Below are positions 20,470 to 41,154 of a stretch of DNA of 64,000 nt, piece after piece. The DNA is from Nitrospirota bacterium (GTDB lineage Bacteria > JACPQY01). A program made the translations under genes and the position numbers. The notes below the pieces were generated by a model that worked only from the letters and a program-made list of their open reading frames with translations, was not told the origin of the DNA and searched no databases. Every line of letters starts with the position of its first letter. Position 1 is the stretch's first letter. The stretch covers positions 174,628 to 238,627 of the forward strand of contig JACPAV010000002.1 of NCBI GenBank assembly GCA_016180645.1, read 5' to 3'.

Positions 20470-20478
20470 GATTCACAT

Positions 20479-21297: not shown

Positions 21298-21331
21298 GGC
21301 AGCCCCCCTCCCGGAATATGCTTCTGCGCGC

Positions 21332-22762: not shown

Positions 22763-23888
22763 CGTTGACCCCCTCCGCGAACGGTTCGAGAGGCACGGCG
22801 CCCGCGAAAGGAACTTTTCCACCTGCCGTTTCAACCTGCGCGGAATGGGCCACCCGTCGCCTCGCGCCGACGGATTTCACCTCCCGCCACCGGGCCACAA
22901 GATCCCGCGCGCGTTCGAGATACGTGTGGTCCGCTCTCACTCGCCTGCAACCCGAACGCGCTATCTTCTCACGCTCCGAATCCCGCTCCAGATAGTGACG
23001 GACGAGAGAGGGGATCTCCGCAGGATCCCGGTAGGTCACCACGTCCCTTCCGGCGTCGAAGAAGCGCGCCAATTCCTCTTTGTGCGGGGTGACCACCATG
23101 CACCCGTTCCCCATCGCCTGGAAAACCCGATCCGAAATCACGCCATCCTCATCGTTGGCGTCCACGCAGATCCGGGTTTCGCCGTACATCCCATAGACGG
23201 CCCGAGTGTCTTCCAGACGCCCCCGGTAGGATTGGCGCAGGCCTGAGCGGTCGATCGCGGGCTGCCCCGCGGACCCAAACAGATCCAGCCCCAGCGATTG
23301 AAGATTCAACAGCGCCCGCTGCCTCCATCCCCCCTCCTCGCGCACGTTTCCCACGAAGGCCACCTTTCTGACCCGGCCCTCTCCGGGCGGAACGGAAATG
23401 AGGCTGTCGAACGCGTTTGGAAGATAGAAGGCCCGGCCCGCGAGCGCGCGAACCCGCGTCGCATCCTGCTCCCGGTGCATCGCGAAACAGTTCCGTTCGG
23501 ACCCCACCAACACCTGGAATATTCGACTCCGAATCGAGCCGTCCCCTCGAAGATACCCCGACACGAGATCGTCCACGTAGGTCACGCTCCGGAACCCCCA
23601 GGCGTCAAAGAGCGAGCAGAGCCTTCCGCGATTCTCGGCGACGAGGCATGCGTTCAGATTGCACCCCAGAACAAAGTCGACCTCGGCTCGTTCAAGATAC
23701 CGCCTGAGCGCGCCCAGAAGGGACTCACGATGCGCGGCCAGAAGCGAGAGAAGCTTCGAACGATCGAACAGGTGGACCCGGTGTCCTCCCACGCCCAGGG
23801 CGCGCGCCAACCCCCCGATGATTCCCGCCTCCGCGTACCAACTCGACGGATCCGTGATGACCGCGACGGAAAGTTTCCTATGAGGCAT
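22755..23888 (-). CDS. CgeB-family glycosyltransferase-like protein
   Basis: C-terminal DRVFQAMGNGCMVVT segment typical of CgeB/DUF3880-type GT1-like proteins. Start set to ATG (MPHRKLSVAVI) at 23888; the track's 5-prime extension is less plausible. Confidence 0.5.
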   Translation of the reverse strand: MPHRKLSVAVITDPSSWYAEAGIIGGLARALGVGGHRVHLFDRSKLLSLLAAHRESLLGALRRYLERAEVDFVLGCNLNACLVAENRGRLCSLFDAWGFRSVTYVDDLVSGYLRGDGSIRSRIFQVLVGSERNCFAMHREQDATRVRALAGRAFYLPNAFDSLISVPPGEGRVRKVAFVGNVREEGGWRQRALLNLQSLGLDLFGSAGQPAIDRSGLRQSYRGRLEDTRAVYGMYGETRICVDANDEDGVISDRVFQAMGNGCMVVTPHKEELARFFDAGRDVVTYRDPAEIPSLVRHYLERDSEREKIARSGCRRVRADHTYLERARDLVARWREVKSVGARRRVAHSAQVETAGGKVPFAGAVPLEPFAEGVNDA

Positions 23889-24110
23889 AGATCCGAAAAA
23901 AGCTTGGAAAACAGAAATCCCAGGTCTCGGATCCAAGCCGGACCGTGAAGGGAGGAATGGGCCGCGTTTCACCCGCCTTCCCCCCCATGATGCCCCGCTC
24001 CTTCAAGGACCGGGCCAGTTCCGCGGAGGCATCCGCGACGGGCGATCCTCCTTTCCGCCGTAAAGGTTCCCCCCGAGCCGCACTTGGTCTGGAACGGAAG
24101 ATCCGGCGTT

Positions 24111-25148
24111 TCATAGCCGGCGATACTCGACCATGAGGGCATCCACGATCTTGCGGGGGTGCCAGTGCTGAACCATGAACTCCCGCGAGTTCCTTCCGGT
24201 TTCCATGCGATGGTCCCCATCCGAGATCAGCCGCCCGAGCACGGTTTCAAGCTCGGCCGAATCCCCCGCGGCCAGCCAAGGCAGTGCATCGGTTCCCGCA
24301 AACCGCGCCGCCTCCGAGCGGGTCCTCTCCGCCAGACGGGCAATGGTGGGGGTGCCTTGGCTCAAAGCTTCGAGCGACGACACGCCGAAGTATCCCTGCA
24401 AATGATCGAAAAAGATGTGGCAGTTTCGCTTCCGCTCCAGGCACTCGGAGTGGGGGACGTTTTCAATGAGGTCGAGGTCCAGGAAACCGTTGTATCGGGC
24501 CTTGAGACCCGCGTAGACGCGCACCAGGAGTTCGGTGTCCTTGATCTCCTTCTTGGTCGGCGACTGACCGATTCTTACTCGTGACTCGTGAGTCGCGACT
24601 CGTGACTCGTGGGGAAGGTAGAGTGGATCGTCGATGGGAACGAGATTGGGTATCCACGTGGCCTCCGGAAGAAAATCCAAGAGGTCCGGCGTGCTGACCA
24701 GAAATGTTCTTCGAGAACTCTGCGCGCGGAATCGAGCCGGATCGGATCGAAGGGGCTCGCCATGTTGATGGTAGATCGCCCTTTTCCCCTTCATGAAATC
24801 CTTGGCCCTGAAAGGACCCAGAGGCGTTTCCTCATCGGCAAAGGCGTGAAAGTGAAAGAGATCGGCATCGCGGAGAACCTGTTCGATCTCCTCCACGTTC
24901 GAGGTTCGATGACCTCCACGAAGGGGGAAATGCCGCGGGAGGGCAGGAGCCCGGAGCGGCCGTTCGACATCCGACGATTCCGGAACATGGATGTCCTTCC
25001 TGTAGTTGAAGTTGTATTTGACGGCCGTGGTCACCAGACGGCAGGAATGTTCGGTGTGACGGTTGATCGCATCGGTGAAGGCGATCCCCATCCCGGCGGG
25101 ATCATTGGTGCAAATCATGAGGATGCGCATCCCAATTCCCCTCGGCAC
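24111..25148 (-). CDS. glycosyltransferase-like protein carrying an in-frame heptanucleotide repeat
   Basis: C-terminal SSLEALSQGTPTIA region resembles a GT-B donor-binding motif; contains HESRVATHESRV encoded by the tandem heptamer array. Confidence 0.5.
   Translation of the reverse strand: MPRGIGMRILMICTNDPAGMGIAFTDAINRHTEHSCRLVTTAVKYNFNYRKDIHVPESSDVERPLRAPALPRHFPLRGGHRTSNVEEIEQVLRDADLFHFHAFADEETPLGPFRAKDFMKGKRAIYHQHGEPLRSDPARFRAQSSRRTFLVSTPDLLDFLPEATWIPNLVPIDDPLYLPHESRVATHESRVRIGQSPTKKEIKDTELLVRVYAGLKARYNGFLDLDLIENVPHSECLERKRNCHIFFDHLQGYFGVSSLEALSQGTPTIARLAERTRSEAARFAGTDALPWLAAGDSAELETVLGRLISDGDHRMETGRNSREFMVQHWHPRKIVDALMVEYRRL
24577..24611. repeat. tandem heptanucleotide array (ACTCGTG x2, AGTCGCG, ACTCGTG x2) inside a coding region
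   Basis: Five adjacent 7-nt units read directly; central GAGTCGCGACTC is palindromic; encodes HESRVATHESRV in frame. Confidence 0.7.
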
Positions 25149-25152: not shown

Positions 25153-27099
25153 TCAGAGAAAGCGGCTCAGGCGGCTGAGGGCCTCCAGCGCCCGTTTCCC
25201 TTTCCACTGGTGGCCGCGCCAGATCTCGGGGACGAACCCCTCGTCGTAGTCTTTCAATTCGCCGAATACGGCTTCGAAGGGAATCTCACCCTCGCCGATT
25301 TGGACTCCCTCCCCATGCACGCCATGGGCGTCCGCCACGTGCAAGTGGCGAATGTAGGGCCTCACCGCGCGGACGAAAGAAACAATGTCCTTGCCGACGT
25401 GCTTGCAGTAGAGCTGGGCATGCGACGTATCCAAACAGATGTTGAACTTCGTTTCCGCGCAAAACGCGGCGATCTCTTCGGGATTCAGAAAAAGGTAGCC
25501 CGTCCATTGGCCCCCGAAATACCACGGAAAGGGCGGCAGGTTCTCGAGGAGGACTTCCACTCCGGTCGTGTCAAGCCGGCGGAGGGAGTCGATGAATCGG
25601 CCCGACATTCCATTCGCGCCGGGATATCCATTCAGACTCATCCCCCCCGGATGGAGGATCACTTTGGGCTTCGACCCGTGATTGAAGGAAGGACCCATCT
25701 TCCGAGCCATGTTGATCACGCGCTGAGCCACGGAAATCGAGCACTGGCGGGTGGCCATGTCTTTCGATGCCAGATCGAGAATGACGTCTCCGTCGTACTC
25801 GGGGGCATGAACGACAAGGTTCTGGGGAAATCGACCCGGGGGCGGCTCGATCTCCAAGTCGCGGTCCGTCATGTGGAATTCGAAGAGGTCGGGCTTGTAT
25901 TCGACAAACTTGTCCACGTCCGTCACCCGGACGATCAAGCCCCACTTCTTGGAGCTGACGGGGCGGGCCATCGGCGCCTCCGGCTCCCTCAGATCGTCCT
26001 CCACAAAAAGCTCACCCGCCATCATGTCCCGATGTGCGGTTCTCCCGATGAGCTGGTCGGCCAGATGGGGCGAGAGGCCTTTCCCCGGCCCCATGACGGT
26101 GATTTTGTCCTGCGTGATGACCTCGCCGATCTTGATATCGGCGGCGGCCACGAGGCTCTTGGCGAACAGCTCCCGATTGAGCTGTTCTCCCTGAGTCATT
26201 CGCTTGACGCCGGTGCCCAAGCACTCCTCCACAACGCGTATCCCATGAACCAAGCGGGCAAATTCATCTTTCTCGAGACTGACTTTGTGGTCGGGCCCCC
26301 ACGCCGTCCGATCATGCGTGAAATGTTTTTCGACAATCCGCGCGCCGCGCGCGACGGCGGCGAGTGAAACTTCGATCCCGCGGTCGTGCCCCGAGTAGCC
26401 TACGGTGACCCCGAACTTCTGGAGTTCATCCATGACTTTCAGATTCACTTCCCGGTAGAGGGCCGGATACAGGCTTACGCAATGGAGAATGGCGAATTCG
26501 GCTCTTTTCGATTTGAGGAAGTTCACCGTGCCTTCGATTTCCGGCATGAGCGACATCCCGGTGGAGAGAAGAAGCGGTTTCCCATGGGCGGACATTCTCG
26601 CCAGCAGCGGCCAATTGGTGAGATCCGCCGACGAGACCTTGAAGGCCTGCACCCCCAGTTGGGCGACAAAGTCCACGCTGGGCGGATCGAAGGCCGTGCA
26701 CAGAAGTTCGATTTCCAGCTCCCGACAGCGTTCGGCCAGCCGCGAGTAGGCTTCTTCATCCAGCTCCACCCGGCGGAGGATCGGGATCATGTACTGAAAG
26801 TGTCTCTCGTGCTGGATCACCTGCTCCAGCACGTCGGAGGTGTAAAGGGATTTCAGATCGCGCTTTTGGAACTTGACGGCATCGGCGCCTGCCGCCTTGG
26901 CGTCCTCAATCAGGCGAAGAGCAAGGTCCTCGCTCCCATTATGATTGATTCCTATTTCGGCGATGACGAAGGTTCGCTGCCCTTCGCCGATGAGCCGCCG
27001 GCCTATCCTAAGAGGATCCGGCACGCTCCGCTCCAGCCAAGGAAGGCGCGGTCCCTCACGCCATGGGGCCACGACGGCCCCGCGCCGACAGGCGCACAT
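25153..27099 (-). CDS. NeuB-family nonulosonate synthase fused to a C-terminal xylose-isomerase-like TIM-barrel domain
   Basis: N-terminal FVIAEIGINHNGS and SAF-like IKIGEVITQDKITVMGPGKG of NeuB-type synthases; C-terminal about 300 aa with LLENLP, DTSHA, HLHVAD, GEGEIPF resembling sugar-phosphate isomerase/epimerase TIM barrels; 648 aa. Confidence 0.65.
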   Translation of the reverse strand: MCACRRGAVVAPWREGPRLPWLERSVPDPLRIGRRLIGEGQRTFVIAEIGINHNGSEDLALRLIEDAKAAGADAVKFQKRDLKSLYTSDVLEQVIQHERHFQYMIPILRRVELDEEAYSRLAERCRELEIELLCTAFDPPSVDFVAQLGVQAFKVSSADLTNWPLLARMSAHGKPLLLSTGMSLMPEIEGTVNFLKSKRAEFAILHCVSLYPALYREVNLKVMDELQKFGVTVGYSGHDRGIEVSLAAVARGARIVEKHFTHDRTAWGPDHKVSLEKDEFARLVHGIRVVEECLGTGVKRMTQGEQLNRELFAKSLVAAADIKIGEVITQDKITVMGPGKGLSPHLADQLIGRTAHRDMMAGELFVEDDLREPEAPMARPVSSKKWGLIVRVTDVDKFVEYKPDLFEFHMTDRDLEIEPPPGRFPQNLVVHAPEYDGDVILDLASKDMATRQCSISVAQRVINMARKMGPSFNHGSKPKVILHPGGMSLNGYPGANGMSGRFIDSLRRLDTTGVEVLLENLPPFPWYFGGQWTGYLFLNPEEIAAFCAETKFNICLDTSHAQLYCKHVGKDIVSFVRAVRPYIRHLHVADAHGVHGEGVQIGEGEIPFEAVFGELKDYDEGFVPEIWRGHQWKGKRALEALSRLSRFL

Positions 27100-27144: not shown

Positions 27145-27759
27145 CTACAGCTGAATGACACAAATCCCTCCCTGTTCCAGCCCCTTGACCTGTTCCAGGA
27201 TCTCGTTCTTGCGCGCGAAGGAGGTGATGATCACGCCGTCCGGGCTCAGCTCCCTGATGGAATCCGGACGCGAGACCTTCCATTGCCCGAAGGATTGCCC
27301 CCATTTGCGTTCATCGTTGTCCACCACGCCAACAATCTCCACCGGAACGTTGCGAAGGGCCGCGCTGACCACTTCTCCCGTTTCCGAGGCCCCAAACAGA
27401 ACCACTCGGCGGATATGCCCGTTCAGATGTTTCTGTACCGCCCGCTGGATGGCGCCCTTGATGTACGAATAAGCCCGCACCAGCTCGACGGACGACTCCA
27501 TCAGAAAATTCATCCTGGCTTCGTTCCCCAGTGGAGTGACTTGGTACGTCATCCTCTTTCTTGAGAGTTCCTCCTTGGCAATCCACCCCTTCCGGATGCC
27601 TTCGTCGATGTAGTAATTGACTTGGGCGCTGGAGACGCCGACCAGTCCGGACAACTTGTGTTGGCTCAAGTTCGGATTCTCGCTGAGAAAATTCAGGAGA
27701 TAGAGCAACTTAAACTTGTGTGTGGGTTTCCAGCATGAGAAGCTGGAGAATTCTTTCAT
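27145..27759 (-). CDS. winged-helix transcriptional regulator with C-terminal Rossmann/CoA-binding-like domain (Rex-like architecture)
   Basis: N-terminal wHTH-like segment (LSQHKLSGLVGVSSAQVNYYI) and C-terminal RVVLFGASETGEVV...VGVVDNDERKWG. Start set to ATG (MKEFSSF) at 27759; first gene after the AT-rich gap. Confidence 0.45.
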   Translation of the reverse strand: MKEFSSFSCWKPTHKFKLLYLLNFLSENPNLSQHKLSGLVGVSSAQVNYYIDEGIRKGWIAKEELSRKRMTYQVTPLGNEARMNFLMESSVELVRAYSYIKGAIQRAVQKHLNGHIRRVVLFGASETGEVVSAALRNVPVEIVGVVDNDERKWGQSFGQWKVSRPDSIRELSPDGVIITSFARKNEILEQVKGLEQGGICVIQL

Positions 27760-27871: not shown

Positions 27872-28120
27872 GCGAACGAACAAAGGAACAAGCCCCCTGC
27901 CAGGTTTCGGCAGGGGGCCCAAGGATCAACACCAACCATCCACAGATTCTCTTTCAAGTTTCGTTTGTTAACTTACTGAACAATATCGGACAGAGCTGCA
28001 ATAACTTTAGGGAGAAGTGAGGACGCGATTGTTCATGAAACAATACCAATATTGTATTGAAATTAAATATATATCTAATCGATTGGCGGAGCCTCAAGGT
28101 TCCGCAATTGAACGATTTCT

Positions 28121-29983
28121 CTACGCGCGAGAGGAGCGCATGCTCTGCTGCAGTTCAAACAGGGCATGCTCAACCAGCCTTCCCATCAACGGGATGTCTC
28201 CCACAAGATTCACAAGGAATGCCTGCCCCGATTCCAGGTGCCGCGCAAGCTGCTCCGAGCCCGACGTTGATTCGCGCCAGGGCCGAAGAACCCGCCGGAC
28301 CAAGGGTTTCGCCACCGCTGAAATCAGCCTGGAGGGAGCCGCCCGATCGGCCACATCGCTGACGAAACTGCCGATCCGCAGCCTTCGTTCCTCCAAGATC
28401 GAGGCGGCGTCTCCATCCGCGGGCCGGCGCCCTATCTCCCCCCACCTCTCGAAGAGATCTCCCATCCGGGCTGAAAATGAGTGGAGTGCTGTTCTTTCTT
28501 CCACAAGGGAGTCGTACAGCCGGCACAGGCTCTCGCGATCCACGGGGGCATCCGCGAGAAAATTCCCGGAAAGATCTCCTCCATTCCAAGCGCTGTCCCG
28601 CGGCAATGCGGCGACCTCGGACCGCAATTCGTCCAGCGTCATCCGCACCGATCCTCCGGTCTCACCACCCGCCACATCACTCAACACGACTTTGAATCCC
28701 CCCCCCTGCCGGTAGCCCGCCCCCATCTCCAAAAGGAAGCGCCTATCCGCCAATCGGTCGTACGCGCTGGGATCGGAAGCATCGGCCGGGTCGAGGTCGA
28801 CCCAGAACGTGCGGTCAAACCATGCCCCGCAAAGAACCGCGGCATCCACGGGGGCGGAGAGACCGAGAGGAAGGTGGAGAGCAGTCGAATCACCCGACAC
28901 CACCCTCTCCATCCATGCGCCAAGATCATCCTGCGCGCGCGCATACACCACCGGTCGCTCAGGGGAATCTTTGAAGGCCAGGGGATCGGCGTCCAAGGGG
29001 AGCACGGCCAGCGCCGGGTCACGAGGGGAACGGGCATCCGCCCCGAAGCGCAAGCGCGGTTGGATTCCCGATGCCGTGCCGGACGTCGCCGTCCCCTCCG
29101 CTCCGCTCCACGGACGGCGAAATGAATTTTCATAGGGTCCTGTCGCCGCGACCACGGTTCGCGCTTCGATCGCTCCCATCAGATCCGCCGGAAGACGACC
29201 GGCGCAGCCGCTGTTCAACACCACCGCGTTCAGCCAGACCTGCCGATCGGGCCGGGGCTGGACCCCGCGGCCTTTCCACAGCCACGGCAGATTCTCGAGC
29301 GAGCGGAGCAGGATCCGACGGGATTCGGTTGCCGGGATTTCCACCTGTCGCCTGAACAGGGACAACCGGCAAGCCGCTCTGCCTTGGATTCTCGCCACCC
29401 TGTCGGTGAACGATTTTGCATAGCCGGGAAGAATCAACCACGAGACCCGGAGGCCGATCCGAAGTGAAGCGTCCATCGCCTTGTTGAAGTGGGGTTCATC
29501 GTGAACGAGTACCAACCGATCTGGCACAAAGAGGCTTCCGTAGTCAATCCGGCCCATGAGGTCGGCCAGCAGGGCTCGGTCCGGCTCATACAGGATGACC
29601 TTCGCGGAGGTCCGGTCCAGAAGTTCGCGCACGTGGTAGCCCAAGCCAAGACCCACCACGAGGACCAACTCCGCACCGGTATCCACCGCCGTCTGGACAA
29701 GTCCCTTGGCCTCGAGCACAGGATGGAAGGGGCTGTGGAGGAATTCGCTCTTGTACTTGAGCGTCGGCGGTCCGGCGCGGGAGGGCAGGATGTCAACCGC
29801 CCCGACTTCACCATCGCCAAGCTCCGGGATCGAACCTCGGACAACTCGGCGGAACGCTTCGGAGTTGCTCGCCCAGCGGAGCCGGCGACGCGGGGATCCG
29901 GTCGCCGTTCCGTTGACCGTCTCCGGCGCGGAGCCGCCGGGGAGGCGTTCAGCGAGCGGCAGGTTGCCGGCCGAGCGGCTCAT
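28121..29983 (-). CDS. Maf-like (motility-associated-factor / DUF115 type) putative nonulosonate transferase, paralog 2
   Basis: ELVLVVGLGLGYHVREL aligns with VDVVVMMGVGLGYDLKE of the adjacent paralog. Start uncertain: track start 30052 overlaps the upstream gene; ATG at about 29983 chosen. Confidence 0.4.
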   Translation of the reverse strand: MSRSAGNLPLAERLPGGSAPETVNGTATGSPRRRLRWASNSEAFRRVVRGSIPELGDGEVGAVDILPSRAGPPTLKYKSEFLHSPFHPVLEAKGLVQTAVDTGAELVLVVGLGLGYHVRELLDRTSAKVILYEPDRALLADLMGRIDYGSLFVPDRLVLVHDEPHFNKAMDASLRIGLRVSWLILPGYAKSFTDRVARIQGRAACRLSLFRRQVEIPATESRRILLRSLENLPWLWKGRGVQPRPDRQVWLNAVVLNSGCAGRLPADLMGAIEARTVVAATGPYENSFRRPWSGAEGTATSGTASGIQPRLRFGADARSPRDPALAVLPLDADPLAFKDSPERPVVYARAQDDLGAWMERVVSGDSTALHLPLGLSAPVDAAVLCGAWFDRTFWVDLDPADASDPSAYDRLADRRFLLEMGAGYRQGGGFKVVLSDVAGGETGGSVRMTLDELRSEVAALPRDSAWNGGDLSGNFLADAPVDRESLCRLYDSLVEERTALHSFSARMGDLFERWGEIGRRPADGDAASILEERRLRIGSFVSDVADRAAPSRLISAVAKPLVRRVLRPWRESTSGSEQLARHLESGQAFLVNLVGDIPLMGRLVEHALFELQQSMRSSRA

Positions 29984-31817
29984 TTTCCAGCGGGGTGTCC
30001 TCAATATCGGAAAGCGCCTCCTCGATTCGGGGCGCCAGGATCTCGCAGCCATCCACAGCCTGGGAGACCCACTCCTCCAGTCGTTTGAGCGTATCCTCGT
30101 AATGAACCGTCCGCCCTCCGGCGCATCCCCTGACGCACCACTCGGCCACCAGAGATTCTCCCATGACGTGGTAGTTGAGTAGGAAGCTGGACGAAACGTA
30201 GTCGGAGATGTCGTCCAAGAGCGCCTCCACGAGGGCCTGCTCGCCGAACATCCCCGCCAATCGATGAATCGTGGTCTCGCCGCTCCGGTACCGCTGGACG
30301 CGTTCCATCTGTTCTTCCAGCAGCGGCCTGAGTTCCCGCACCCGAAACGCTTCGGCGCGCAACAGCTCCCTCAGCGCTCTCAGCTTGTCTCCATGCAACA
30401 GCGGCGACATCGTCCGACGGAAAAAGGATTTGTCCACCTTCCGCCCGAGATATCGGGGAGCGGCCTCTTCGAGCGGAACGTGCTGGAACCCCTCAATCCA
30501 GACGCCGTCGCCGGTGGCGTTGACAAGTGTAATGCCCCGGGCCGACGTCCGGGCGGCCAATTCGAACCAGTTGACCGTTTTCTCGAACTGCCTCCACGTG
30601 AGCACTTCGCCGCCCTTGTATCCCTTCACGGTGGTGAACTGGGGATCATCCTTCAGCGCCTTCGGGGGGGGCAAGGCATGCTCTCTCGAAACGCCCCGGG
30701 CGTGGGTCCGCCCGCCGGGAAAGGAGAGATCCTGCCCGGCCATGAGAATCCGATCGCATCCGAGCCGCATGGCAAAGCTGAAAGCCGTGGTGGACACGGA
30801 ATAGGCATGCGGCAACACGGCGTTGAATCCCGTCAGGTTGAAAAGCGGACGCTCGAAGGGGCTGGAGGATTCGACGTACAACCAGATCCGCGTGAGCGGG
30901 AGGTCGAACAACTTGGGGCACACCTTGAGGGGGAAGATCGCGGAAAGGGTTTCCGGAAGGTCCACCTCATCGAAGAAATCCGTCACATCGATCGCCTCAT
31001 CGCTGAAGACAAAGTCCGGGACCACTCCAGACCGTAGGAGGGGTTTGAGAGACGCATCCGTGGCCAGGAGGATCGCGCGTTCCTGCACCTCCTTCAAAAG
31101 CGGCAGATGACCGGCGAGGGACGGTCCCGCACCGATGATGATGGCCGGCAACCCCATCCCGCTCCCCTCCAATGCGGCCGCCATCGGGTATTCGACGACC
31201 CGATGGAGATTCAGGAGGTTGGTCCCCACCCATTCCCGTGCGCGGTTCTTCCAAATGCCGAGGCACATCCTCGAATTCTCGATGTCCACCGTGAAATTGG
31301 CGACAAGTTCCCGCACCTGCTCGGGGAAGAGGATCTCGTGCGCGGCGCCCACGAAAATTCTTCCCTCCAGCCCCAGCCGGAACCAGACGCGGAACGCCAG
31401 GGCCAATTCCTCCGATTTGCGGGTCAGGAACACGCGGTCCTGACGGAAGAGGTCCGAAAAGTCGTGGATCATCAGCGCGACTTTCAACAGGGGGAGTTCC
31501 GGTTCGAGAATGAGCAGGTCCTTTCCGGTCTCCCTCGATGCCTCCTTCAAATCGTAGCCGAGGCCGACTCCCATCATGACCACAACATCCACTCCCTCGC
31601 TCCTGAAGGCCATCCAGCGGGCCCGGGCCTCGGCCCCCGGATGTTCACGGCTGTGGAGAAGCACTCCCTTCCACGAGAGCGTCCACTGCCCGTTCGCGCT
31701 CTCCTCCAGGAGATGCAGCGGTGCTTCAGCTTCCTCAAGCTCCGCGGCCAGCTCCGGAAAGCGGGGCCGGAGGGCCGCCAGGTTCTTGTGAAGGCGCTCG
31801 AGGCTGGGCTTAAGCAT
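29949..31817 (-). CDS. Maf-like (motility-associated-factor / DUF115 type) putative nonulosonate transferase, paralog 1
   Basis: LPAIIIGAGPSLAGHL (GxGPSL) motif characteristic of Maf/MptE-like glycosyltransferases. Start set to ATG (MLKPSLERL) at 31817. Confidence 0.55.
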   Translation of the reverse strand: MLKPSLERLHKNLAALRPRFPELAAELEEAEAPLHLLEESANGQWTLSWKGVLLHSREHPGAEARARWMAFRSEGVDVVVMMGVGLGYDLKEASRETGKDLLILEPELPLLKVALMIHDFSDLFRQDRVFLTRKSEELALAFRVWFRLGLEGRIFVGAAHEILFPEQVRELVANFTVDIENSRMCLGIWKNRAREWVGTNLLNLHRVVEYPMAAALEGSGMGLPAIIIGAGPSLAGHLPLLKEVQERAILLATDASLKPLLRSGVVPDFVFSDEAIDVTDFFDEVDLPETLSAIFPLKVCPKLFDLPLTRIWLYVESSSPFERPLFNLTGFNAVLPHAYSVSTTAFSFAMRLGCDRILMAGQDLSFPGGRTHARGVSREHALPPPKALKDDPQFTTVKGYKGGEVLTWRQFEKTVNWFELAARTSARGITLVNATGDGVWIEGFQHVPLEEAAPRYLGRKVDKSFFRRTMSPLLHGDKLRALRELLRAEAFRVRELRPLLEEQMERVQRYRSGETTIHRLAGMFGEQALVEALLDDISDYVSSSFLLNYHVMGESLVAEWCVRGCAGGRTVHYEDTLKRLEEWVSQAVDGCEILAPRIEEALSDIEDTPLENEPLGRQPAAR

Positions 31818-32877
31818 ATCCGCCGCCCCTGAAGAGGGAGGCCTCCTTGAGAACGTCGCGCCATTGGGCGACGAAGCGGTCCATGGAAAACTGACTCTCA
31901 ACCGTCCGGCGCGCCTCCCCTCCCATCCTCGCCGCCTCTTCGGAAGAGTCGAGCAACTCGCGGAGGCGAGATCGTAGCGCGCCGACGTCCGACGTAATGT
32001 ATCCATTCACGCCGTTCCTGATCGGCGAGGACGTATTCCACGTCGAGAGGACCGGCGTGCCCGCGGCCATGGCCTCCAACATGCAAAGCGTGTACCCGTC
32101 CTCCAGCCCCTCCACGGTCGTGTTCACGAACAGACGCGCGCTTCGATAAATATCCTTCAGTTCATCGAACGACGAGGCCGATTCACTTTTCACGCCCTGG
32201 TCGTTATCCCCCACCACGCGGAGCGGAAATCCGTCGCAAATGGCCAGGAGGTCCCGCAGGCCCTCTTTCGCGCGGGAAAGGCCGTTGCACACCCTCAGCG
32301 CGCTCGCCACTTCGCCCGTGTGGTCGGGAAAATCGGAAATGTCGATGCCGTGCACAATCACGCGCGAGGGGCATCGCAGCCCCCAGTTCTTCCGCTTGAA
32401 CTCCGAGATAAAAACAAAGAAGACATTTCCGGATTTCAGGAAAAGCCTCTGCAGAGATCTCAGGAATTCCCGCTTCCGGAGGGCCTGGCCGAGAAGGTCC
32501 GTTTCGGAATAGGGGAACGCATTATGGAACACGAGCACTTTCCCGGAAGGGCTCGCGATGCACGCCAGGAGATCCTCCACATCGTGGCAAACGATCGCAT
32601 CATAGTAGGCGTCTCGGCTCCGTTCCTTCATGTCGCTCTCGGAGATCAGCCGGGCGTTGGGAGGAAGCGGGCGAAGTCGGGGATTCCACGCGCGCACGTA
32701 GCCCAAGCTGGGAATGTGCCGTTCGCAGATATCGAATTCGTGTCCCGTCCTTGCGAGGTTGCACAGATACGGTTCGTGCCGGCAGAAGGTCAGTATCCGG
32801 AGGGTTCGACGCGAGGCCCCGATGACGTTTCCATTCGTCGTCCCGGAAGCGAAGCGGAGGGGGCGCGTCGTACCCAT
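31810..32877 (-). CDS. glycosyltransferase, GT4-like
   Basis: CMLEAMAAGTPVLST motif. Start set to ATG (MGTTRPL) at 32877, adjacent to the upstream stop. Confidence 0.6.
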   Translation of the reverse strand: MGTTRPLRFASGTTNGNVIGASRRTLRILTFCRHEPYLCNLARTGHEFDICERHIPSLGYVRAWNPRLRPLPPNARLISESDMKERSRDAYYDAIVCHDVEDLLACIASPSGKVLVFHNAFPYSETDLLGQALRKREFLRSLQRLFLKSGNVFFVFISEFKRKNWGLRCPSRVIVHGIDISDFPDHTGEVASALRVCNGLSRAKEGLRDLLAICDGFPLRVVGDNDQGVKSESASSFDELKDIYRSARLFVNTTVEGLEDGYTLCMLEAMAAGTPVLSTWNTSSPIRNGVNGYITSDVGALRSRLRELLDSSEEAARMGGEARRTVESQFSMDRFVAQWRDVLKEASLFRGGGYA

Positions 32878-34190
32878 CAGACCGGAGCGCGGAGTTTGTC
32901 CCCGAGGATGAACGAGGCCATTTGGAAACACTCAAGCTGCTCCGGGGAGACGGGCGGTCCGGACATCAGGTCCGTGACGACGGCCTGGTAGTAGGCCTCC
33001 GCCCGCCCCGGGTCCTGTCCCGAGAGGAGCAAGGCCAGAATCCAGGCCGCGATCGGGCGATCACCGGGCTGCCCCATCGCTTCCGTGAGATGTTGAATGG
33101 CCGCGGCGGGCTGCCGCTTCAAGATTGAAAGGAGCGCCAGGTAGGGAGACACACCTGCCTTGCCGCCGGCCTGCGCGGCCTTCGTCAGCAGTCCGGCCGC
33201 CAGATCCATGCGCTCTGCGAAAACGGGCGAGTCCGGGTAGACCAGCATGAGGCAGGTTTTTCCCAGAAGAGAGTATTCCCGCGCGGACCAGACACGAGGC
33301 ACATGATCGAGGAGGGCGCGTTGCAGCACCTCCGCCGCCTCCCGCGCGCGGTGATCAGACGTGTGCCGCTCCATGACCTTGCGCCGGCCGGCCTCCGCGA
33401 TGGCCGCCCGGTCCGTCTCATGTTCGAGGTAGTAGCGGATGAGCTCCGCTACCTGGTCCGCATCACCGTGACGGTAAATCACTAGATCCCGGCCTGGCTC
33501 GAACAGGTCCGCTTGGCCGTTCTCCAATTCTTCGGCGAGCAGCATTCCTCCGCATGCCATCGCCTCGAAGGTCCGCTGATTCAAGTCTCGATTGACCGAT
33601 TCGTTCAGGATGATCTTCGATCGATTGTAGGTCTCCGCATAGGCTCCGCTGTCGACCACGAATCGAATGCTGCCGTTCAACCGGACTTTGAGCCGATCGA
33701 GGAAAGCAACCCGATGGGGATGGATCCGCGGATCCAGCTTTCCCACGAAGCAGGCGTCGATGTCGCGCGGGAGGCCAAGATCCTTGTCGGTGCCTGCCGA
33801 GCAGGCCAGTGGAAGCCAGGAGGCCGATACCGCGCCCCATTGCCTGAACGGTTCCACGTAGTCCTTCTGGGCCACGAACAGCACATCGAAAAGCGGGGCA
33901 TAGTTCCTCTGCCACGCGAAATTGAGATGGGAATCCACCGCGTAGTACGCTTTCAATTGCGGAACGCGGTCCATGTCCCGCCATAGATGCTTGACGCCCC
34001 TCTCAATGAACAGGAGGACCTCCGGCTCGAAGAAATCCTTCCGACAGCGGGCGACCACCGTTTCCAATGAAGGATGGAGCTCGTTGCAGATAATTTGGAA
34101 CCGATCCTCCCATCGGCCGCAGGTCACCACCTCATGCTCCCGGCGCAGTTCATCCACGAGAGCGGGATTGTCCAGGACCAGAATCTTCAA
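32877..34190 (-). CDS. CgeB-family glycosyltransferase-like protein
   Basis: NQRTFEAMACGGMLL segment typical of CgeB-type proteins; TTG start preceded by GGGGAGG SD per my reading; 437 aa. Confidence 0.55.
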   Translation of the reverse strand: MKILVLDNPALVDELRREHEVVTCGRWEDRFQIICNELHPSLETVVARCRKDFFEPEVLLFIERGVKHLWRDMDRVPQLKAYYAVDSHLNFAWQRNYAPLFDVLFVAQKDYVEPFRQWGAVSASWLPLACSAGTDKDLGLPRDIDACFVGKLDPRIHPHRVAFLDRLKVRLNGSIRFVVDSGAYAETYNRSKIILNESVNRDLNQRTFEAMACGGMLLAEELENGQADLFEPGRDLVIYRHGDADQVAELIRYYLEHETDRAAIAEAGRRKVMERHTSDHRAREAAEVLQRALLDHVPRVWSAREYSLLGKTCLMLVYPDSPVFAERMDLAAGLLTKAAQAGGKAGVSPYLALLSILKRQPAAAIQHLTEAMGQPGDRPIAAWILALLLSGQDPGRAEAYYQAVVTDLMSGPPVSPEQLECFQMASFILGDKLRAPV

Positions 34191-34204: not shown

Positions 34205-34225
34205 CCCCTCCTTACGAAGGAGGGG
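34205..34225 (-). other. intercistronic stem-loop CCCCTCCTT-ACG-AAGGAGGGG spanning the upstream stop codon
   Basis: Perfect 9-bp inverted repeat with 3-nt loop; contains the TAA stop of the 944-aa gene and lies about 15 nt upstream of the SD of the next gene; one arm is itself SD-like. Confidence 0.4.
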
Positions 34226-37046
34226 AACCTCCTTCGTCCAGCCGGCGAGGAAAGACATCTGCCCCCTCCTCCCCTTTGTGCGGGGAGGCCGGGGGGGGTG
34301 GAGCTTCCGAGACTCGAACCAAGAGCCTCCGCGCGCCCCCGTGCCCCGGGTTCAGGGCCAGGAGCCGCTTGATTTCATCCATGCAGTCGGTTTCCTGCCC
34401 CGTTTCGGAAAGGAAAAGGATCAGGAGGTACCGGACCTCGTAGTCGGCGGCATGGAGGGCCAGGTAGTTCCTCAGGTGGCGAAGGGCCTCGCGCTTGTGT
34501 TCCATGGAAGCGGCACACGAGGCGAGGCCGATGACCGCCCGGCGATGATCACCGTTCCCGTCGATGAGGCCGCAGAAAATATCGCGGGCTCGGGCGTGGT
34601 CTTTCAGTTGAACCCGGAGCGCTGCAATTTCAACCAGCCGATCCGGGTCGCTCCCGGCTTCGCGGGCCAACTCGTCGACTTCGTGAGATACCTTGCCGGC
34701 GCCTTCCGACACGATCCTCACCTGAAGCAGCCCCACGCGACCGGCGAAGGATTCAGGGTCCACCGCGAGGAGGGATTCGAAGGCCCGCGCCGCTTCGTCC
34801 ATCCTCGCCGCCGCCAGCTTGCCCTCTCCGAGCAGCAAGTAGTACTCGCATAGCCGTCGCTCATGCAGCGAGAAGCGGGAGGAGACATGGGAAAGCACCT
34901 GAAAGGCCTTCGCAAGTTTCTTGGAACCCAGCAGGGCTCGCACCAGGGCCAGGTGGGATTCCGGCTTAGTTTCGTCGAGTCGAACGGCTTCCTCGAACTT
35001 CTTGGCCGCCTCATCCCACTGGGCCGAGTCCAGATGGGCTCGGCCTTCCGAGAGCAGGCGGGCAATGACCTGCTGCCTCGGGCGCGCCCGGAGGAGGTAC
35101 TGGAACGTCCTCATTTCATCGGCTGCGTTTTCCGCGTCGCTCCGCAGCTCCGCGGCAACCTTCTGAAGGCCCGGCAGGATGGCGTGCGGCGGCGTGGTAC
35201 GCGCGCCCATTTCCTCGATCACCCAGCCGGTGGTTTCGAACAGGCTCCGAATTTCCTGGAGCGTGAAAAATCGCACGTGGTCCCGATCCAGAATCCCCTC
35301 CTCCGCGTAGGACCATCGTCCGGACAGGAGTTGGCCGATCACGGACCAGTGGCCGACGTTCGGGACACTGGATACGACGCACCCCTGGGGCGTGAGCCGG
35401 GCCTGAAGGCCTTCGAGCAGGCCCCACGGGTCGTCAAGGTGCTCCAACACGTCGGACAGAACGATACAATCGAAGGTCTCGTCGCCCAGCGTCTTCGGGT
35501 CCCGCGCGTCCCCCGTGATCACCCGGTCCAATCGGCGCGCGGCCTCTGCCGCTGCTTCTTCCACCATCTCCACTCCCGTGATATGGACCCACGGTCGTCG
35601 GGTTTTCAGGTACGCACCGAAGCCGCCGGTGGCGCATCCGACATCGAGGATCCGTTCGGCCTCCCGCGGGATGAGCGGCTCGACTTCTTCCCTCGAATGC
35701 GAGTAGTAAACGAATGACCTCCCGCGAAAACTGCGGGTCTCCATCATCCCCATGGCCAGATGGGCCGTCCGCTCCGCCGCCTTGCCGTCGTCCATGTAAT
35801 TCAGTTCGTAGATGGAACGAGGACGCTTCAGCTCGAACTCCTGCGCGAGGGCGGCATCGTACAGTACGCGCCGTATCGCCTCGGCCAGGCCCGGAGCGTC
35901 CGTCACCTGGAGCACCGGATCGTGCGGCTGAAAAAGGGGATCGTGATAGCGCACGACCGGGAGGTTGATCACCGGTTTGCCGCACAAGATGCCGGCGACC
36001 CCCAGGAGGGAGTCCGCGCACACGACGGCATCCGAAACGTAGACGATGGGCTCGGGGTTCGCATCTCTTTCCACGATGCGGACGCGGGCCACTCCGGCCG
36101 AATCCGCCTTCCGGCGATACCACTCCTTTCCCTTCTGATCCGAGGGATGCAGCTTCACCAACCAGTCGCAGGATTCCGACTCCAAAGCCCGCGCCGCCTG
36201 GAGGAAGAGATCGTAGGCGCGCTCGACGAGAGCCGGGTCCGAGTGCGTGGACAGGCCGTGGGTCCAGGTCGAACAGTAGAGAACGATTTTCCGATCCGGC
36301 TGGAGATCGAACTTCTGCCGGAGAGCCGCCGCCCGTCCGCTGTTCCGTAGAGAATGATAGACGTCCCAGTAGGGGGCGCCGGTCACCACGATATTCTTAG
36401 GATCGTTTCCCCACCGAAGATACCACTGCCGGGTCCGCTCCCCCTGCACGGCGATCCGGTCCGCCCAGATCCGATCGTGGGCGTTGTGGAAAAGCGCCCC
36501 CATGCCGTGGAGCATGTGGAGCACGGGGATACCCCGTTTCCTGAAGAAGAGCGCGAGGGTCTTTCCATCGAGTAGGACGTCTTCCCAAAGGAGGGCGAGT
36601 TGGGGGCGATATCGCTGGACGGCCTGGTCGAGCATTTCAACCAGCAGAATTTGCTCCCGGATGCGTTCCCGCTTGAAGTGTTCCGCCGCCAATTGGGCGG
36701 CCACAACCCACGGTTCGGGCCAACCGAGATTCGTGGGCCAGAATCCGGGGAGTGGACGTTTCTCGTAGTCGTCCAAGATGCCCGCCATGGAAGGATTGAG
36801 CGACGCCTCGCGCACGTCCTTTTCCAGCTCGGGGACAACGGACACGCAATCCACTCCCACCTTCGTGAGCGTGGAAAAGATGTTTTCGCCGTAGACGAGA
36901 TAGGTGCTCGGACGGATCCGCTCGATTTCCTGGATCACCGGCAGGTACGCCGTGCCCACATAGGTGAAGATGGCGGGCTTGTCAACCACGGGTCGCCTCG
37001 CGTGGGGGGGGGGAAGAAATGGGAACAAGCTTGGAAAAGACGGCAA
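34212..37046 (-). CDS. multidomain protein: TagF-like (HP motif) transferase domain + class I SAM methyltransferase + TPR repeats
   Basis: CSTWTHG and LVKLHPSDQ resemble CDP-glycerol glycerophosphotransferase motifs; RILDVGCATGGFGAYL methyltransferase motif I; C-terminal TPR-like helical repeats; 944 aa. Start uncertain; G10 tract near 5-prime end. Confidence 0.5.
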   Translation of the reverse strand: MPSFPSLFPFLPPPHARRPVVDKPAIFTYVGTAYLPVIQEIERIRPSTYLVYGENIFSTLTKVGVDCVSVVPELEKDVREASLNPSMAGILDDYEKRPLPGFWPTNLGWPEPWVVAAQLAAEHFKRERIREQILLVEMLDQAVQRYRPQLALLWEDVLLDGKTLALFFRKRGIPVLHMLHGMGALFHNAHDRIWADRIAVQGERTRQWYLRWGNDPKNIVVTGAPYWDVYHSLRNSGRAAALRQKFDLQPDRKIVLYCSTWTHGLSTHSDPALVERAYDLFLQAARALESESCDWLVKLHPSDQKGKEWYRRKADSAGVARVRIVERDANPEPIVYVSDAVVCADSLLGVAGILCGKPVINLPVVRYHDPLFQPHDPVLQVTDAPGLAEAIRRVLYDAALAQEFELKRPRSIYELNYMDDGKAAERTAHLAMGMMETRSFRGRSFVYYSHSREEVEPLIPREAERILDVGCATGGFGAYLKTRRPWVHITGVEMVEEAAAEAARRLDRVITGDARDPKTLGDETFDCIVLSDVLEHLDDPWGLLEGLQARLTPQGCVVSSVPNVGHWSVIGQLLSGRWSYAEEGILDRDHVRFFTLQEIRSLFETTGWVIEEMGARTTPPHAILPGLQKVAAELRSDAENAADEMRTFQYLLRARPRQQVIARLLSEGRAHLDSAQWDEAAKKFEEAVRLDETKPESHLALVRALLGSKKLAKAFQVLSHVSSRFSLHERRLCEYYLLLGEGKLAAARMDEAARAFESLLAVDPESFAGRVGLLQVRIVSEGAGKVSHEVDELAREAGSDPDRLVEIAALRVQLKDHARARDIFCGLIDGNGDHRRAVIGLASCAASMEHKREALRHLRNYLALHAADYEVRYLLILFLSETGQETDCMDEIKRLLALNPGHGGARRLLVRVSEAPPPPASPHKGEEGADVFPRRLDEGGSPPS

Positions 37047-41117: not shown

Positions 41118-41154
41118 CACCCGGCTCCCCTGTCGCATGACACCTGACGCATGA

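What the first reader, a model, noticed from the sequence alone, without database searches (positions are those of the whole stretch)
28121..31817. Two tandem Maf-like transferases and four cytidylyltransferases but no flagellin gene in 64 kb
Maf (DUF115) proteins are best known as flagellin nonulosonate transferases. Here two paralogs sit inside a locus with at least four CMP-sugar activating enzymes (255, 4797, 15450, 45399) and two NeuB-type synthases, yet no flagellin or flagellar gene is visible. The target may be a non-flagellar protein (pilin, S-layer) or a polysaccharide, and the locus may make more than one activated sugar.
Basis: partly seen in the sequence, partly recalled or inferred. 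Interest (0 to 1): 0.5.

Follow-up and report, generated by a model that had tools for sequence, protein, structure and literature searches.

The report
Flagellin-type sugar island with half-dead Maf twin
This is most likely an ordinary but very large flagellin sugar-decoration gene island from an uncultured Nitrospirota bacterium, whose only unusual feature is that the second "Maf" gene is a conserved copy that has lost its enzyme motifs.

Summary
ORF 29949-31817(-) is a true Maf: MptE-like 96 bits plus Maf_flag10_N, and its family profile hits PDB 5MU5. ORF 28121-29983(-) is a full-length Maf paralog. It keeps every conserved N-domain position but has lost the GPSL and GQDLSF motifs of the catalytic domain. 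Only four such proteins exist among 1.84 billion representatives, and each sits just downstream of a true Maf.

The four CMP-transferases and two NeuB synthases are confirmed. The locus encodes at least three ulosonate routes: Pse-type, Leg-type and Kdo-like.

No flagellin gene lies in the 64 kb or in 8 kb recovered beyond the left edge. That absence is not surprising. None of 17 relatives' Maf loci with at least 8 kb on both sides has a flagellin gene.

Two further observations favour flagellin as the target:
- The 48-kb island encodes no polytopic membrane protein, so it has no flippase, polymerase or exporter.
- It carries three sigma-28 (FliA)-type promoter motifs, of the same form as those in front of relatives' flagellin genes (2 exact matches against 0.01 expected).

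A non-flagellar target is not supported, but it cannot be excluded without the rest of the genome.

The parts
29949..31817 (-). True Maf glycosyltransferase, 622 aa, MBI2058304.1. It has the three-domain architecture with intact GPSL and GQDLSF motifs.
   Evidence: Pfam MptE-like 96.3 bits plus Maf_flag10_N 39.7 bits. FlagModPseD domain 85 bits. Family profile A2 hits PDB 5MU5 at E 1e-24. Motifs shown.
28121..29983 (-). Degenerate Maf paralog ('pseudo-Maf'), 620 aa, HYT87_00895 / MBI2058303.1. The N-domain is conserved and the catalytic-domain motifs are lost. Its start overlaps the Maf stop by 35 nt.
   Evidence: hhalign 99.9%, E 2e-31. Motif loss. Model top hit 5MU5. Only 4 family members among 1.84e9 representatives. 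The tandem arrangement is conserved in L006 and L007. Domain-wise identities.
31810..32877 (-). GT1-type glycosyltransferase, 355 aa, overlapping the Maf start by 8 nt.
   Evidence: Pfam Glyco_trans_1_4 / Glyco_trans_1_2. Gene call in L001. Conserved upstream of Maf in L006 and L007.
32877..34190 (-). CgeB-like glycosyltransferase (Glyco_trans_1_2), 437 aa.
   Evidence: Pfam 103 bits. Conserved in L006 and L007.
34212..36989 (-). 925-aa multidomain protein: a GT-B-like domain (Capsule_synth / BFO_1060-like), a SAM methyltransferase and C-terminal TPR repeats.
   Evidence: Pfam, NCBIfam, gene call.
27984..28010 (-). Sigma-28 (FliA)-type promoter-like site, CTAAAGTTATTGCAGCTCTGTCCGATA. It is followed by a conserved leader or sRNA-like stretch with a hairpin at 27889-27921.
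   Evidence: The orthologous site in L007 is shown.
27145..27759 (-). HTH_24 / C2185-like_N protein, 204 aa, conserved next to the pseudo-Maf in L007.
25153..27024 (-). NeuB-type nonulosonate synthase fused to a xylose-isomerase-like TIM barrel, 623 aa.
   Evidence: Pfam NeuB 266 bits plus SAF plus AP_endonuc_2 95 bits. NeuB_NnaB 351 bits. The same fusion occurs in L007.
37320..48290 (-). Pse-type sub-cluster: PseB, NeuB (46225-47367), CMP-transferase (45399-46220), methyltransferases, PseG-like, formyltransferase, DegT aminotransferase, two WbqC (PseA/PtmG-like), an epimerase_2-like gene and a PIG-L deacetylase.
   Evidence: Pfam. PseB equivalog 474 bits, PseC-like 203 bits, PseG-like 96 bits.
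48987..49014 (-). Sigma-28-type promoter-like site, CTAAAGTGTTTTATGAAACTATCCGATA. It lies upstream of the MerR gene (48394-48861) and the head of the island.
   Evidence: No minus-strand terminator lies between it and PseB.
4755..4782 (-). Sigma-28-type promoter-like site, TAAACTTTCTGCAATTTGAGGCCGATCT. It lies upstream of the NusG/UpxY-like gene and is followed by a sigma-70-like site at 4676-4705.
4118..4612 (-). Specialised NusG paralog (UpxY/LoaP/RfaH-like), at the head of the Leg-type sub-cluster.
   Evidence: Pfam NusG. UpxY 83 bits and LoaP 67 bits, both below their cut-offs.
4797..9711 (-). Kdo-like sub-cluster: KdsB-like CMP-transferase, two SDRs, HpcH/HpaI aldolase, transaldolase/FSA and a SIS isomerase.
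   Evidence: Pfam. NF003952 209 bits against a cut-off of 193.
255..1061 (-). PseF-like CMP-transferase. This is the first visible gene of the Leg-type sub-cluster, which continues beyond the left edge.
   Evidence: Pfam. PseF 130 bits, below its cut-off. The extension is in L003.
15450..16211 (+). Fourth CMP-transferase (PseF-like). With its 245-aa neighbour, it is one of the only two plus-strand genes in the island.
   Evidence: Pfam 68 bits. PseF 113 bits, below its cut-off.
16947..25148 (-). Further soluble glycan-building genes: two GT4s, FkbM and other methyltransferases, a UDP-sugar dehydrogenase, a CgeB-like GT and a GT-like 345-aa protein.
   Evidence: Pfam. Hydropathy. Sequence.

Best explanation
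The window comes from a 369.7-kb contig of an uncultured Nitrospirota MAG. Positions 1 to about 48300, plus at least 8 kb to the left, form one minus-strand island of soluble enzymes. The island makes several CMP-activated ulosonic acids (Pse-type, Leg-type and a Kdo-like sugar, with formyl, acetamidino and methyl decorations) and attaches them in the cytoplasm to a protein that is exported afterwards. That protein is most likely flagellin, encoded elsewhere in the genome.

The 622-aa Maf is the protein O-glycosyltransferase. The other soluble GTs (GT1, CgeB-like, GT4 and the GT-MT-TPR protein) would extend or modify the glycan.

The gene translationally overlapping the Maf stop is a Maf paralog with a conserved N-domain and helical C-domain but a decayed catalytic core. 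I infer that it no longer transfers sugar and acts as a non-catalytic partner of Maf.

Expression is tied to the late flagellar regulon through FliA-type promoters.

Shown here: the homologies, the motif loss, the gene order, the absence of membrane proteins and the promoter-like motifs. Inferred: flagellin as acceptor, the sugar identities, inactivity of the paralog and promoter function.
For: - **Maf identity:**
- **Paralog:** it is Maf-derived but lacks GPSL and GQDLSF and nearly all other conserved central-domain columns, while all 15 conserved N-domain columns are kept. Its central domain is at or near its least conserved part (25-56% identity). In the true Maf the central domain is the most conserved (65-68%).
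- **Conserved cassette:** GT, GT, Maf and pseudo-Maf occur in the same order in three lineages.
- **Sugar routes:** the mix of Pse, Leg and WbqC genes in the window and PtmE-like beyond its left edge matches what is published for Campylobacter-type flagellin glycosylation loci (the comparison rests on established knowledge).
- **No membrane machinery:** none of the 44 island proteins has more than one hydrophobic segment. Maf and FlmG systems glycosylate in the cytoplasm from soluble CMP-sugars, unlike periplasmic lipid-linked systems (bioRxiv 10.1101/2023.12.03.569772).
- **FliA-type promoters:** the motif CTAAAGT-N14-15-CCGATA, derived from the sites in front of flagellin genes in L025 and L031, matches twice in the window against 0.01 expected. 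Both matches are intergenic and on the coding strand. A stricter consensus scan gives 3 hits against 0.02 expected. One site is conserved at the orthologous position in L007.
- **Baseline:** relatives' Maf genes are rarely adjacent to flagellin.
Against: - No flagellin or any flagellar gene was seen in 64 kb plus about 8 kb. The rest of the genome could not be read, so flagella in this organism are assumed, not shown.
- Sigma-28-family factors also serve non-flagellar regulons (Chlamydia, Streptomyces WhiG). Consensus matches are not evidence of promoter activity. The stricter pattern was tuned after the hits had been seen.
- The island holds many more GTs than most flagellin islands.
- It also holds a Capsule_synth/BFO_1060-like domain, a KdsB-like gene and a UpxY-like NusG paralog, all of which are typical of polysaccharide loci.
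- Inactivity of the paralog rests on family conservation, not on mapped catalytic residues.
Confidence: 0.66

Rival explanations
1. The island builds a capsule or LPS-type polysaccharide rich in ulosonic acids. The DUF115 proteins would act as sugar-to-sugar ulosonate transferases, and the export and initiation genes would lie elsewhere in the genome.
For: - Seven or eight further GTs are present, including a Capsule_synth / Glyphos_transf / BFO_1060-like domain.
- A KdsB-like gene plus a SIS gene recall kpsU/kpsF, and a UpxY-like NusG paralog is present.
- A weak LIC13510 'surface carbohydrate' hit was found.
- There is a published precedent: a Maf-fold protein is predicted to be the alpha-Kdo transferase of the E. 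coli K15 capsule (PMC7387560).
- A short 367-aa DUF115 protein without Maf N- or C-domains sits in the Leg sub-cluster.
Against: - About 56 kb of contiguous island contains no flippase, polymerase, ABC transporter, phosphoglycosyl transferase or chain-length or export protein, and no polytopic membrane protein at all.
- The 622-aa protein has the full three-domain Maf architecture, including the Maf-specific N-domain.
- FliA-type promoter motifs are present.
Confidence: 0.14
2. Maf glycosylates a non-flagellar protein (a pilin, an S-layer protein, a lipoprotein or another exported protein) in the cytoplasm.
For: - No flagellin lies within about 72 kb.
- Nonulosonate modification of non-flagellar proteins is known in other bacteria, for example the Tannerella S-layer and Leptospira (my own knowledge). 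Glycosylation beyond flagellins is also reported in H. pylori (PMC3184161 abstract).
- The closest named Maf relatives include lineages not noted for motility, such as Caldilineaceae and Vicinamibacterales.
Against: - No candidate acceptor (pilin-like, S-layer-like or Ser/Thr-rich secreted protein) is encoded in the island.
- Every characterised Maf acts on flagellin.
- Known pilin and S-layer O-glycosylation generally uses lipid-linked donors and membrane oligosaccharyltransferases, which are absent here (established knowledge).
- FliA-type promoter motifs are present.
- Distance from flagellin is the norm for related Mafs.
Confidence: 0.12
3. The downstream paralog is still an active transferase with a rewired active site, giving two working Mafs with different donor or site specificity, as with C. 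jejuni Maf paralogs or Shewanella Maf-1/Maf-2.
For: - The ORF is intact at 572-620 aa in four lineages, and parts of the central Rossmann-like strands are still modelled.
- Several donors are made by the island.
- Multiple Mafs per locus are common.
Against: - The GPSL and GQDLSF motifs are invariant or nearly so in 21 diverse Mafs and present in 5MU5, yet they are substituted or deleted in every member of the paralog family.
- The central domain has indels, low model confidence and the weakest conservation.
- There is no Pfam, NCBIfam or PDB sequence hit.
Confidence: 0.2

Closest known systems
Maf (motility-associated factor) flagellin nonulosonate O-glycosyltransferases, e.g. M. magneticum Maf (PDB 5MU5), A. 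caviae Maf1, C. jejuni PseD/PseE/Maf4
   Same: The 622-aa protein has the same three-domain layout, passes both Pfam Maf models, keeps the family motifs and sits among CMP-Pse/Leg biosynthesis genes.
   Different: It is only 25-32% identical to anything outside its own small clade. No flagellin gene is nearby. It is paired with a degenerate copy of itself.
GlfM-Maf-2 tripartite flagellin glycosylation system (Shewanella oneidensis; bioRxiv 10.1101/2023.12.03.569772)
   Same: A Maf without a TPR extension is followed immediately downstream by a cis-encoded, non-catalytic, largely helical protein. That protein could supply acceptor binding (the analogy is an inference).
   Different: [quoted passage not shown] Here the downstream gene is a 620-aa full-length Maf paralog with a decayed catalytic core, so it is not a GlfM homolog. 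No interaction was tested.
Campylobacter jejuni flagellin glycosylation island (Cj1293-Cj1342)
   Same: It combines Pse and Leg routes, WbqC-type PseA/PtmG amidotransferase-like genes, PtmE-like CBS-nucleotidyltransferase, GFO/IDH/MocA and SDR Ptm-like genes, several DUF115 proteins and only soluble enzymes (the comparison is from established knowledge).
   Different: The flagellin genes are not inside this island. It adds a Kdo-like route, B12-radical SAM enzymes, a NusG paralog and a NeuB-TIM-barrel fusion. One of its DUF115 proteins has lost the catalytic motifs.
Maf-fold ulosonate transferases of polysaccharide loci (predicted alpha-Kdo transferase ORF4 of the E. coli K15 capsule, PMC7387560)
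   Same: A Maf or CstII-like central fold is used with a CMP-ulosonate donor outside flagella. This is relevant to the short 367-aa DUF115 protein beyond the left edge.
   Different: The K15 locus is a kps capsule locus with export genes. No export genes are present here.

Membership tests
Maf flagellin glycosyltransferase family, protein 29949-31817 | Central MptE-like / MAF_flag10 domain (PF01973) above the gathering score | tested here: met
   96.3 bits against a cut-off of 34.6.
Maf flagellin glycosylotransferase family, protein 29949-31817 | Maf-specific N-terminal domain (PF20157) and homology to the solved Maf 5MU5 | tested here: met
   39.7 bits against a cut-off of 23.5. Family profile against 5MU5 gives E 1e-24.
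Maf flagellin glycosyltransferase family, protein 29949-31817 | Flagellin as the acceptor | not testable with these tools
   No flagellin in the window or the 8-kb extension. The only indirect support is the FliA-type promoter motifs.
Maf flagellin glycosyltransferase family, protein 28121-29983 | Central MptE-like domain detectable and its conserved motifs (GPSL, GQDLSF) present | tested here: not met
   No PF01973 or NCBIfam hit. The motifs are substituted or deleted in all family members.
Maf flagellin glycosyltransferase family, protein 28121-29983 | Common descent with Maf over the full length (N-domain, central domain, helical C-domain) | tested here: met
   - hhalign 99.9%, E 2e-31, 554 columns.
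- 86 bits on the Maf HMM built here.
- Model top hit 5MU5, E 1.7e-11.
- All 15 conserved N-domain columns are kept.
- PF20157 scores 21.9 bits, just under its cut-off.
Flagellin glycosylation island | CMP-Pse and/or CMP-Leg biosynthesis genes linked to a Maf | tested here: met
   PseB equivalog, two NeuB and four CTP_transf_3 genes in the window. LegB/LegC/NeuC-type and PtmE-like genes lie in the L003 extension.
Flagellin glycosylation island | Flagellin or other flagellar genes inside or beside the island | tested here: not met
   None in about 72 kb. This feature is also absent from most relatives' Maf loci, so it is common but not universal.
Polysaccharide (capsule / O-antigen) biosynthesis locus | Initiating phosphoglycosyl transferase plus Wzx/Wzy or ABC-transporter export machinery | tested here: not met
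   No protein with more than one hydrophobic segment in the island. No such Pfam family was found.
GlfM-Maf-2 tripartite system | GlfM-type four-helix-bundle specificity factor encoded downstream of Maf | tested here: not met
   The downstream gene is a 620-aa Maf paralog. No GlfM model or sequence was available for direct comparison. The resemblance is functional analogy only.
Sigma-28 (FliA) regulon | Promoter matching TAAA(GTTT)-N11-12-GCCGATAA upstream of the genes | tested here: met
   Three intergenic sites on the coding strand against 0.02 expected. Two exact matches to a motif derived from relatives' flagellin promoters against 0.01 expected. Activity and the presence of FliA were not tested.

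The most novel reading that the evidence does not exclude
The decayed Maf paralog is an obligatory non-catalytic subunit of a heteromeric Maf/pseudo-Maf flagellin glycosyltransferase. In this reading a duplicated enzyme has been converted into the acceptor-recognition or regulatory module, filling the role that GlfM or a TPR domain plays in other Maf systems. The pair would be expressed with a FliA-driven, lineage-specific leader or small RNA that lies directly downstream of it.
Probability: 0.3. Interest if true: 0.6.

Novelty: new variant of a known kind. Interest (0 to 1): 0.36.

Why it matters
How Maf enzymes pick flagellin out of all cytoplasmic proteins, and how they choose among several donor sugars, is still open. 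Only one accessory factor, GlfM, has been described. A conserved Maf copy that has kept its N- and C-domains but lost its catalytic motifs would be a second, independent solution. It would also be a natural experiment on which Maf domains carry partner or acceptor binding.

The island is also a compact catalogue of unexplored ulosonate chemistry in an uncultured phylum: a Kdo-like aldolase route, B12-radical SAM enzymes and a NeuB-TIM-barrel fusion.

Tried and rejected
- **Finding the window's own DNA:** an exact 40-mer from the left edge found nothing in genome contigs or metagenome contigs.
- **Look-ups with wrong starts:** the longest-ORF versions of Maf and NeuB were not on record. The trimmed Maf start worked.
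- **Walking further left:** the real MAG protein P0203 (PtmE-like) was recovered, but no contig is on record for it. The Logan contig L003 proved chimeric after about position 16585. The extension is therefore trusted for about 8 kb only.
- **False lead:** P0050, a 620-aa hit, turned out to be an unrelated low-GC Maf.
- **GTDB scan with the Maf trio profile:** it found no close relative, only 24-29% identical Mafs. Their neighbourhoods share almost none of the island's genes.
- **Permissive sigma-28 scan:** up to 3 mismatches gave no enrichment, 35 hits against 35 expected. Only stringent or control-derived patterns are informative.
- **Leader motif in JGI metagenomes:** the search gave one chance hit in an unrelated, eukaryote-like contig, L042.
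- **Rfam:** no family anywhere in the window.
- **PDB sequence search with the paralog profile:** no hit.
- **Literature:** nothing found for the SRA runs or for inactive Maf paralogs.
- **Catalytic residues of 5MU5:** the structure paper is not in the library, so motif loss is judged from family conservation only.

Full report
**Observation**

The interval 28121-31817 holds two overlapping minus-strand ORFs. With the starts used by public gene calls they are 29949-31817 (622 aa) and 28121-29983 (620 aa), overlapping by 35 nt.

Pfam confirms the upstream protein as a Maf. It scores MptE-like/DUF115 96.3 bits and Maf_flag10_N 39.7 bits, both above their cut-offs. NCBI's own name for the identical protein, MBI2058304.1, is 'motility associated factor glycosyltransferase family protein'.

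The downstream protein is a different matter. It gets only a sub-threshold 21.9 bits on the N-domain model, no MptE-like hit and no NCBIfam hit. BLASTP between the two proteins gives 25% identity over 216 N-terminal residues.

- Four PF02348 cytidylyltransferases at 255, 4797, 15450 and 45399.
- Two NeuB synthases at 25153 and 46225.
- No flagellin or flagellar domain in any of 59 scanned ORFs.
- No hit in a six-frame phmmer scan with B. subtilis Hag and Salmonella FliC. I recalled those sequences from memory. The same scan found flagellins at E down to 1e-76 in three relatives' loci, so it is sensitive across phyla.

**Source and what lies beyond the window**

The 620-aa protein is identical to HYT87_00895 (MBI2058303.1) of a 'Nitrospirae/Nitrospirota bacterium' MAG, on a 369,728-bp contig. 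The window's DNA is not in the two searchable contig collections.

Short Logan assemblies of the same population were recovered. One of them, L003, runs about 8 kb past the left edge. The island continues there with:
- a TPR-methyltransferase and an SDR
- a NeuC-type hydrolysing 2-epimerase (454 bits, equivalog level)
- a methyltransferase
- LegB-like (447 bits) and LegC (471 bits, above its cut-off)
- a third DUF115 protein of 367 aa that is a bare central domain with intact motifs
- a CBS-nucleotidyltransferase of the PtmE type

No flagellin appears there either. L003 is chimeric in its last ~350 bases, and the walk could not be continued. On the right, the island ends at about 48.3 kb and is followed by 16 kb of unrelated genes: Hsp20, an acyl-CoA ligase-type AMP-binding enzyme, TRAP transporter parts, a toxin-antitoxin pair and UbiB.

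**The second 'Maf' is a decayed paralog**

A profile of this protein and its only three relatives aligns end to end with a profile of 21 Mafs (hhalign 99.9%, E 2e-31, 554 columns). It scores 86 bits on a Maf HMM built here. An AlphaFold model (mean pLDDT 71.8) has the M. magneticum Maf structure 5MU5 as its only significant PDB match (E 1.7e-11).

Column by column, all 15 positions conserved in the Maf N-domain are retained. Nearly all conserved positions of the central domain are substituted or deleted in every member, including the invariant G-P-S-L and G-Q-D-L-S-F motifs, which are also present in 5MU5.

The pattern of conservation is inverted relative to the true Maf. Between orthologs the true Maf is most conserved in the central domain (65-68%). 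The paralog is most conserved in the N-domain and at or near its lowest in the central domain, which also has indels and low model confidence.

The family is tiny, with four members among 1.84 billion representative proteins. In the three lineages where the neighbourhood could be read, the paralog lies directly downstream of a true Maf, within a conserved order: CgeB-like GT, GT1, Maf, paralog. None of 34 more distant Maf loci has such a tandem copy.

So 'two Maf-like transferases' should read 'one Maf plus one conserved, probably non-catalytic Maf derivative'.

**The island**

From about 48.3 kb leftwards, almost every gene is on the minus strand, and the genes whose start sites were resolved overlap or abut. 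Three ulosonate routes can be recognised:
- **Pse-type block (37.3-48.3 kb).** PseB equivalog at 474 bits, PseC-like, PseG-like, NeuB, a CMP-transferase, a formyltransferase, two WbqC (PseA/PtmG-like) genes, a PIG-L deacetylase and methyltransferases.
- **Leg-type block.** It straddles the left edge.
- **Kdo-like block (4.8-9.7 kb).** A KdsB-like CMP-transferase above its subfamily cut-off, two SDRs, an HpcH aldolase, a transaldolase and a SIS isomerase.

The remaining genes are a second NeuB fused to a xylose-isomerase-like TIM barrel, two B12-radical SAM/oxidoreductase pairs, about eight soluble glycosyltransferases, a 925-aa GT-methyltransferase-TPR protein and a UpxY/LoaP-like NusG paralog.

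**What is the target?**

Three lines of evidence bear on this.

First, none of the 44 island proteins has more than one hydrophobic segment. There is no flippase, polymerase, ABC exporter, initiating phosphoglycosyl transferase or oligosaccharyltransferase. That is the signature of cytoplasmic protein glycosylation from soluble CMP-sugars, as described for Maf and FlmG. It does not fit lipid-linked polysaccharide, pilin or S-layer pathways (established knowledge).

Second, distance from flagellin is normal for this branch of the family. The nearest Mafs in species-representative genomes are 24-29% identical and come mostly from Spirochaetota. Only 3 of those 34 loci have a flagellin gene in the fetched flanks. 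None of the 17 loci with at least 8 kb on both sides has one.

Third, the island carries FliA (sigma-28)-type promoter motifs. In the two relatives where flagellin follows Maf (L025, L031), the flagellin gene is preceded by CTAAAGTA-N-CCGATA. The pattern derived from those two sites, CTAAAGT-N14-15-CCGATA, matches exactly twice in the window against 0.01 expected. Both matches are intergenic and on the coding strand. One lies upstream of the MerR gene that heads the island (48987-49014). The other lies just after the Maf pair (27984-28010).

A scan with the classical consensus (TAAAGTTT with at most 1 mismatch, a 10-13 nt spacer, GCCGATAA with at most 2 mismatches and the CGAT core fixed) adds a third site at 4755-4782, in front of the NusG paralog. 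That is 3 hits against 0.02 expected, and 0 of 300 shuffles reach 3. The 28010 site is conserved at the orthologous position in L007, although the flanking proteins are only 30-57% identical.

Three caveats apply. The stringent thresholds were set after the hits had been seen. A permissive scan shows no enrichment. Sigma-28-family factors are not exclusively flagellar.

**Most likely mechanism**

The island makes several decorated CMP-ulosonates. The Maf transfers one or more of them to Ser/Thr of flagellin in the cytoplasm before export, and the soluble GTs and methyltransferases elaborate the glycan. Expression is coupled to late flagellar genes by FliA, with sigma-70-like sites as well.

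The true Maf lacks a TPR extension. In Shewanella, a Maf of that type needs GlfM, a specificity factor encoded downstream of it. By analogy, I propose that the decayed paralog, whose start overlaps the Maf stop, is a non-catalytic partner supplying acceptor binding or regulation. This last step is inference only.

**Rivals**

- **Polysaccharide role.** Suggested by the number of GTs, the Capsule_synth/BFO_1060-like domain, the KdsB-like gene, the NusG paralog and a published Maf-fold Kdo transferase in the E. coli K15 capsule. It lacks all export machinery over about 56 kb.
- **Non-flagellar protein target.** It has no candidate acceptor in the island and no precedent among characterised Mafs.
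- **A still-active paralog.** Possible, but it conflicts with the loss of every invariant central-domain motif.

**Novelty and limits**

The conserved Maf/pseudo-Maf pair is, as far as the library search shows, undescribed, which makes this a new variant.

The decisive missing datum is the rest of the MAG. Flagellin, FliA and flagellar export genes should be there. If they are not, the favoured explanation fails.

Noticed in passing
window 27878-27976 (-), hairpin 27889-27921; L007 6058-6170: A conserved non-coding stretch of about 95 nt lies directly downstream of the sigma-28-like site. It ends in a 14-bp GC-rich hairpin with a T tail and is followed by a sigma-70-like promoter for the HTH gene. 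Sequence blocks (GTTCAGTAAsTTAACAAACG, TTGGTGTTGATCCTT) are shared with L007 although the neighbouring proteins are only 30-57% identical. The fold z-score is -2.6, and there is no Rfam family. It is a candidate FliA-dependent small RNA or leader.
   Followed up: partly
window 4735-4749 (-) and 27961-27975 (-): The 15-mer TAAGTTAACRAACGA, which contains a GTTAAC palindrome, occurs just downstream of the -10 element of two of the three sigma-28-like sites (2 matches against 0.07 expected). A variant is also present twice in L007. It could be an operator or a shared 5' leader.
   Followed up: partly
L003 14886-15989 (about 6-7 kb beyond the left edge of the window): A third DUF115 protein of 367 aa consists of the central MptE-like domain alone, with intact GPSI and GMDL motifs. 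It lies between the LegC-type and PtmE-like genes and could be a sugar-to-sugar ulosonate transferase.
   Followed up: partly
window 25153-27024 (-): A NeuB-type synthase with a SAF domain is fused to a C-terminal xylose-isomerase-like TIM barrel (AP_endonuc_2, 95 bits). The same fusion is present in L007 (629 aa).
   Followed up: no
window 4797-9711 (-): This sub-cluster holds a KdsB-like CMP-transferase, two SDRs, an HpcH/HpaI aldolase, a transaldolase/FSA and a SIS_2 isomerase. It suggests an aldolase-based, NeuB-independent route to a CMP-activated keto-deoxy sugar acid.
   Followed up: no
window 1058-3701 (-) and 10780-13470 (-): Two B12-binding radical SAM enzymes are each paired with a GFO/IDH/MocA oxidoreductase inside the sugar island. 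They may carry out C-methylation or another radical modification of the sugars.
   Followed up: no
window 4118-4612 (-): A specialised NusG paralog lies in the middle of the island. Its best matches are UpxY (83 bits) and LoaP (67 bits), both below their cut-offs. It has sigma-28-like and sigma-70-like sites upstream and a 64-aa ORF (3785-3979) downstream.
   Followed up: partly
window 34212-36989 (-): A 925-aa protein combines a GT-B-like domain (Capsule_synth / Glyphos_transf / BFO_1060 family), a SAM methyltransferase and C-terminal TPR repeats. TPR domains bind flagellin in FlmG and in Shewanella Maf-1, so this could be a second flagellin-directed enzyme.
   Followed up: no
L003 about 16585-16936: The Logan contig is chimeric at its end. 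The PtmE-like ORF is identical to the MAG protein P0203 for about 151 residues and then switches to a 94% match with a Gammaproteobacteria nucleotidyltransferase.
   Followed up: yes
window 58774-59939 (+): An Xre-type HTH protein is followed by a short AbiEii-like nucleotidyltransferase toxin (type IV toxin-antitoxin pair), outside the island.
   Followed up: no
window 50836-52250 (-): Two adjacent ORFs without Pfam hits (271 and 237 aa) are Gly/Ala-rich with alternating patterns. They look like outer-membrane beta-barrel proteins and lie outside the island.
   Followed up: no
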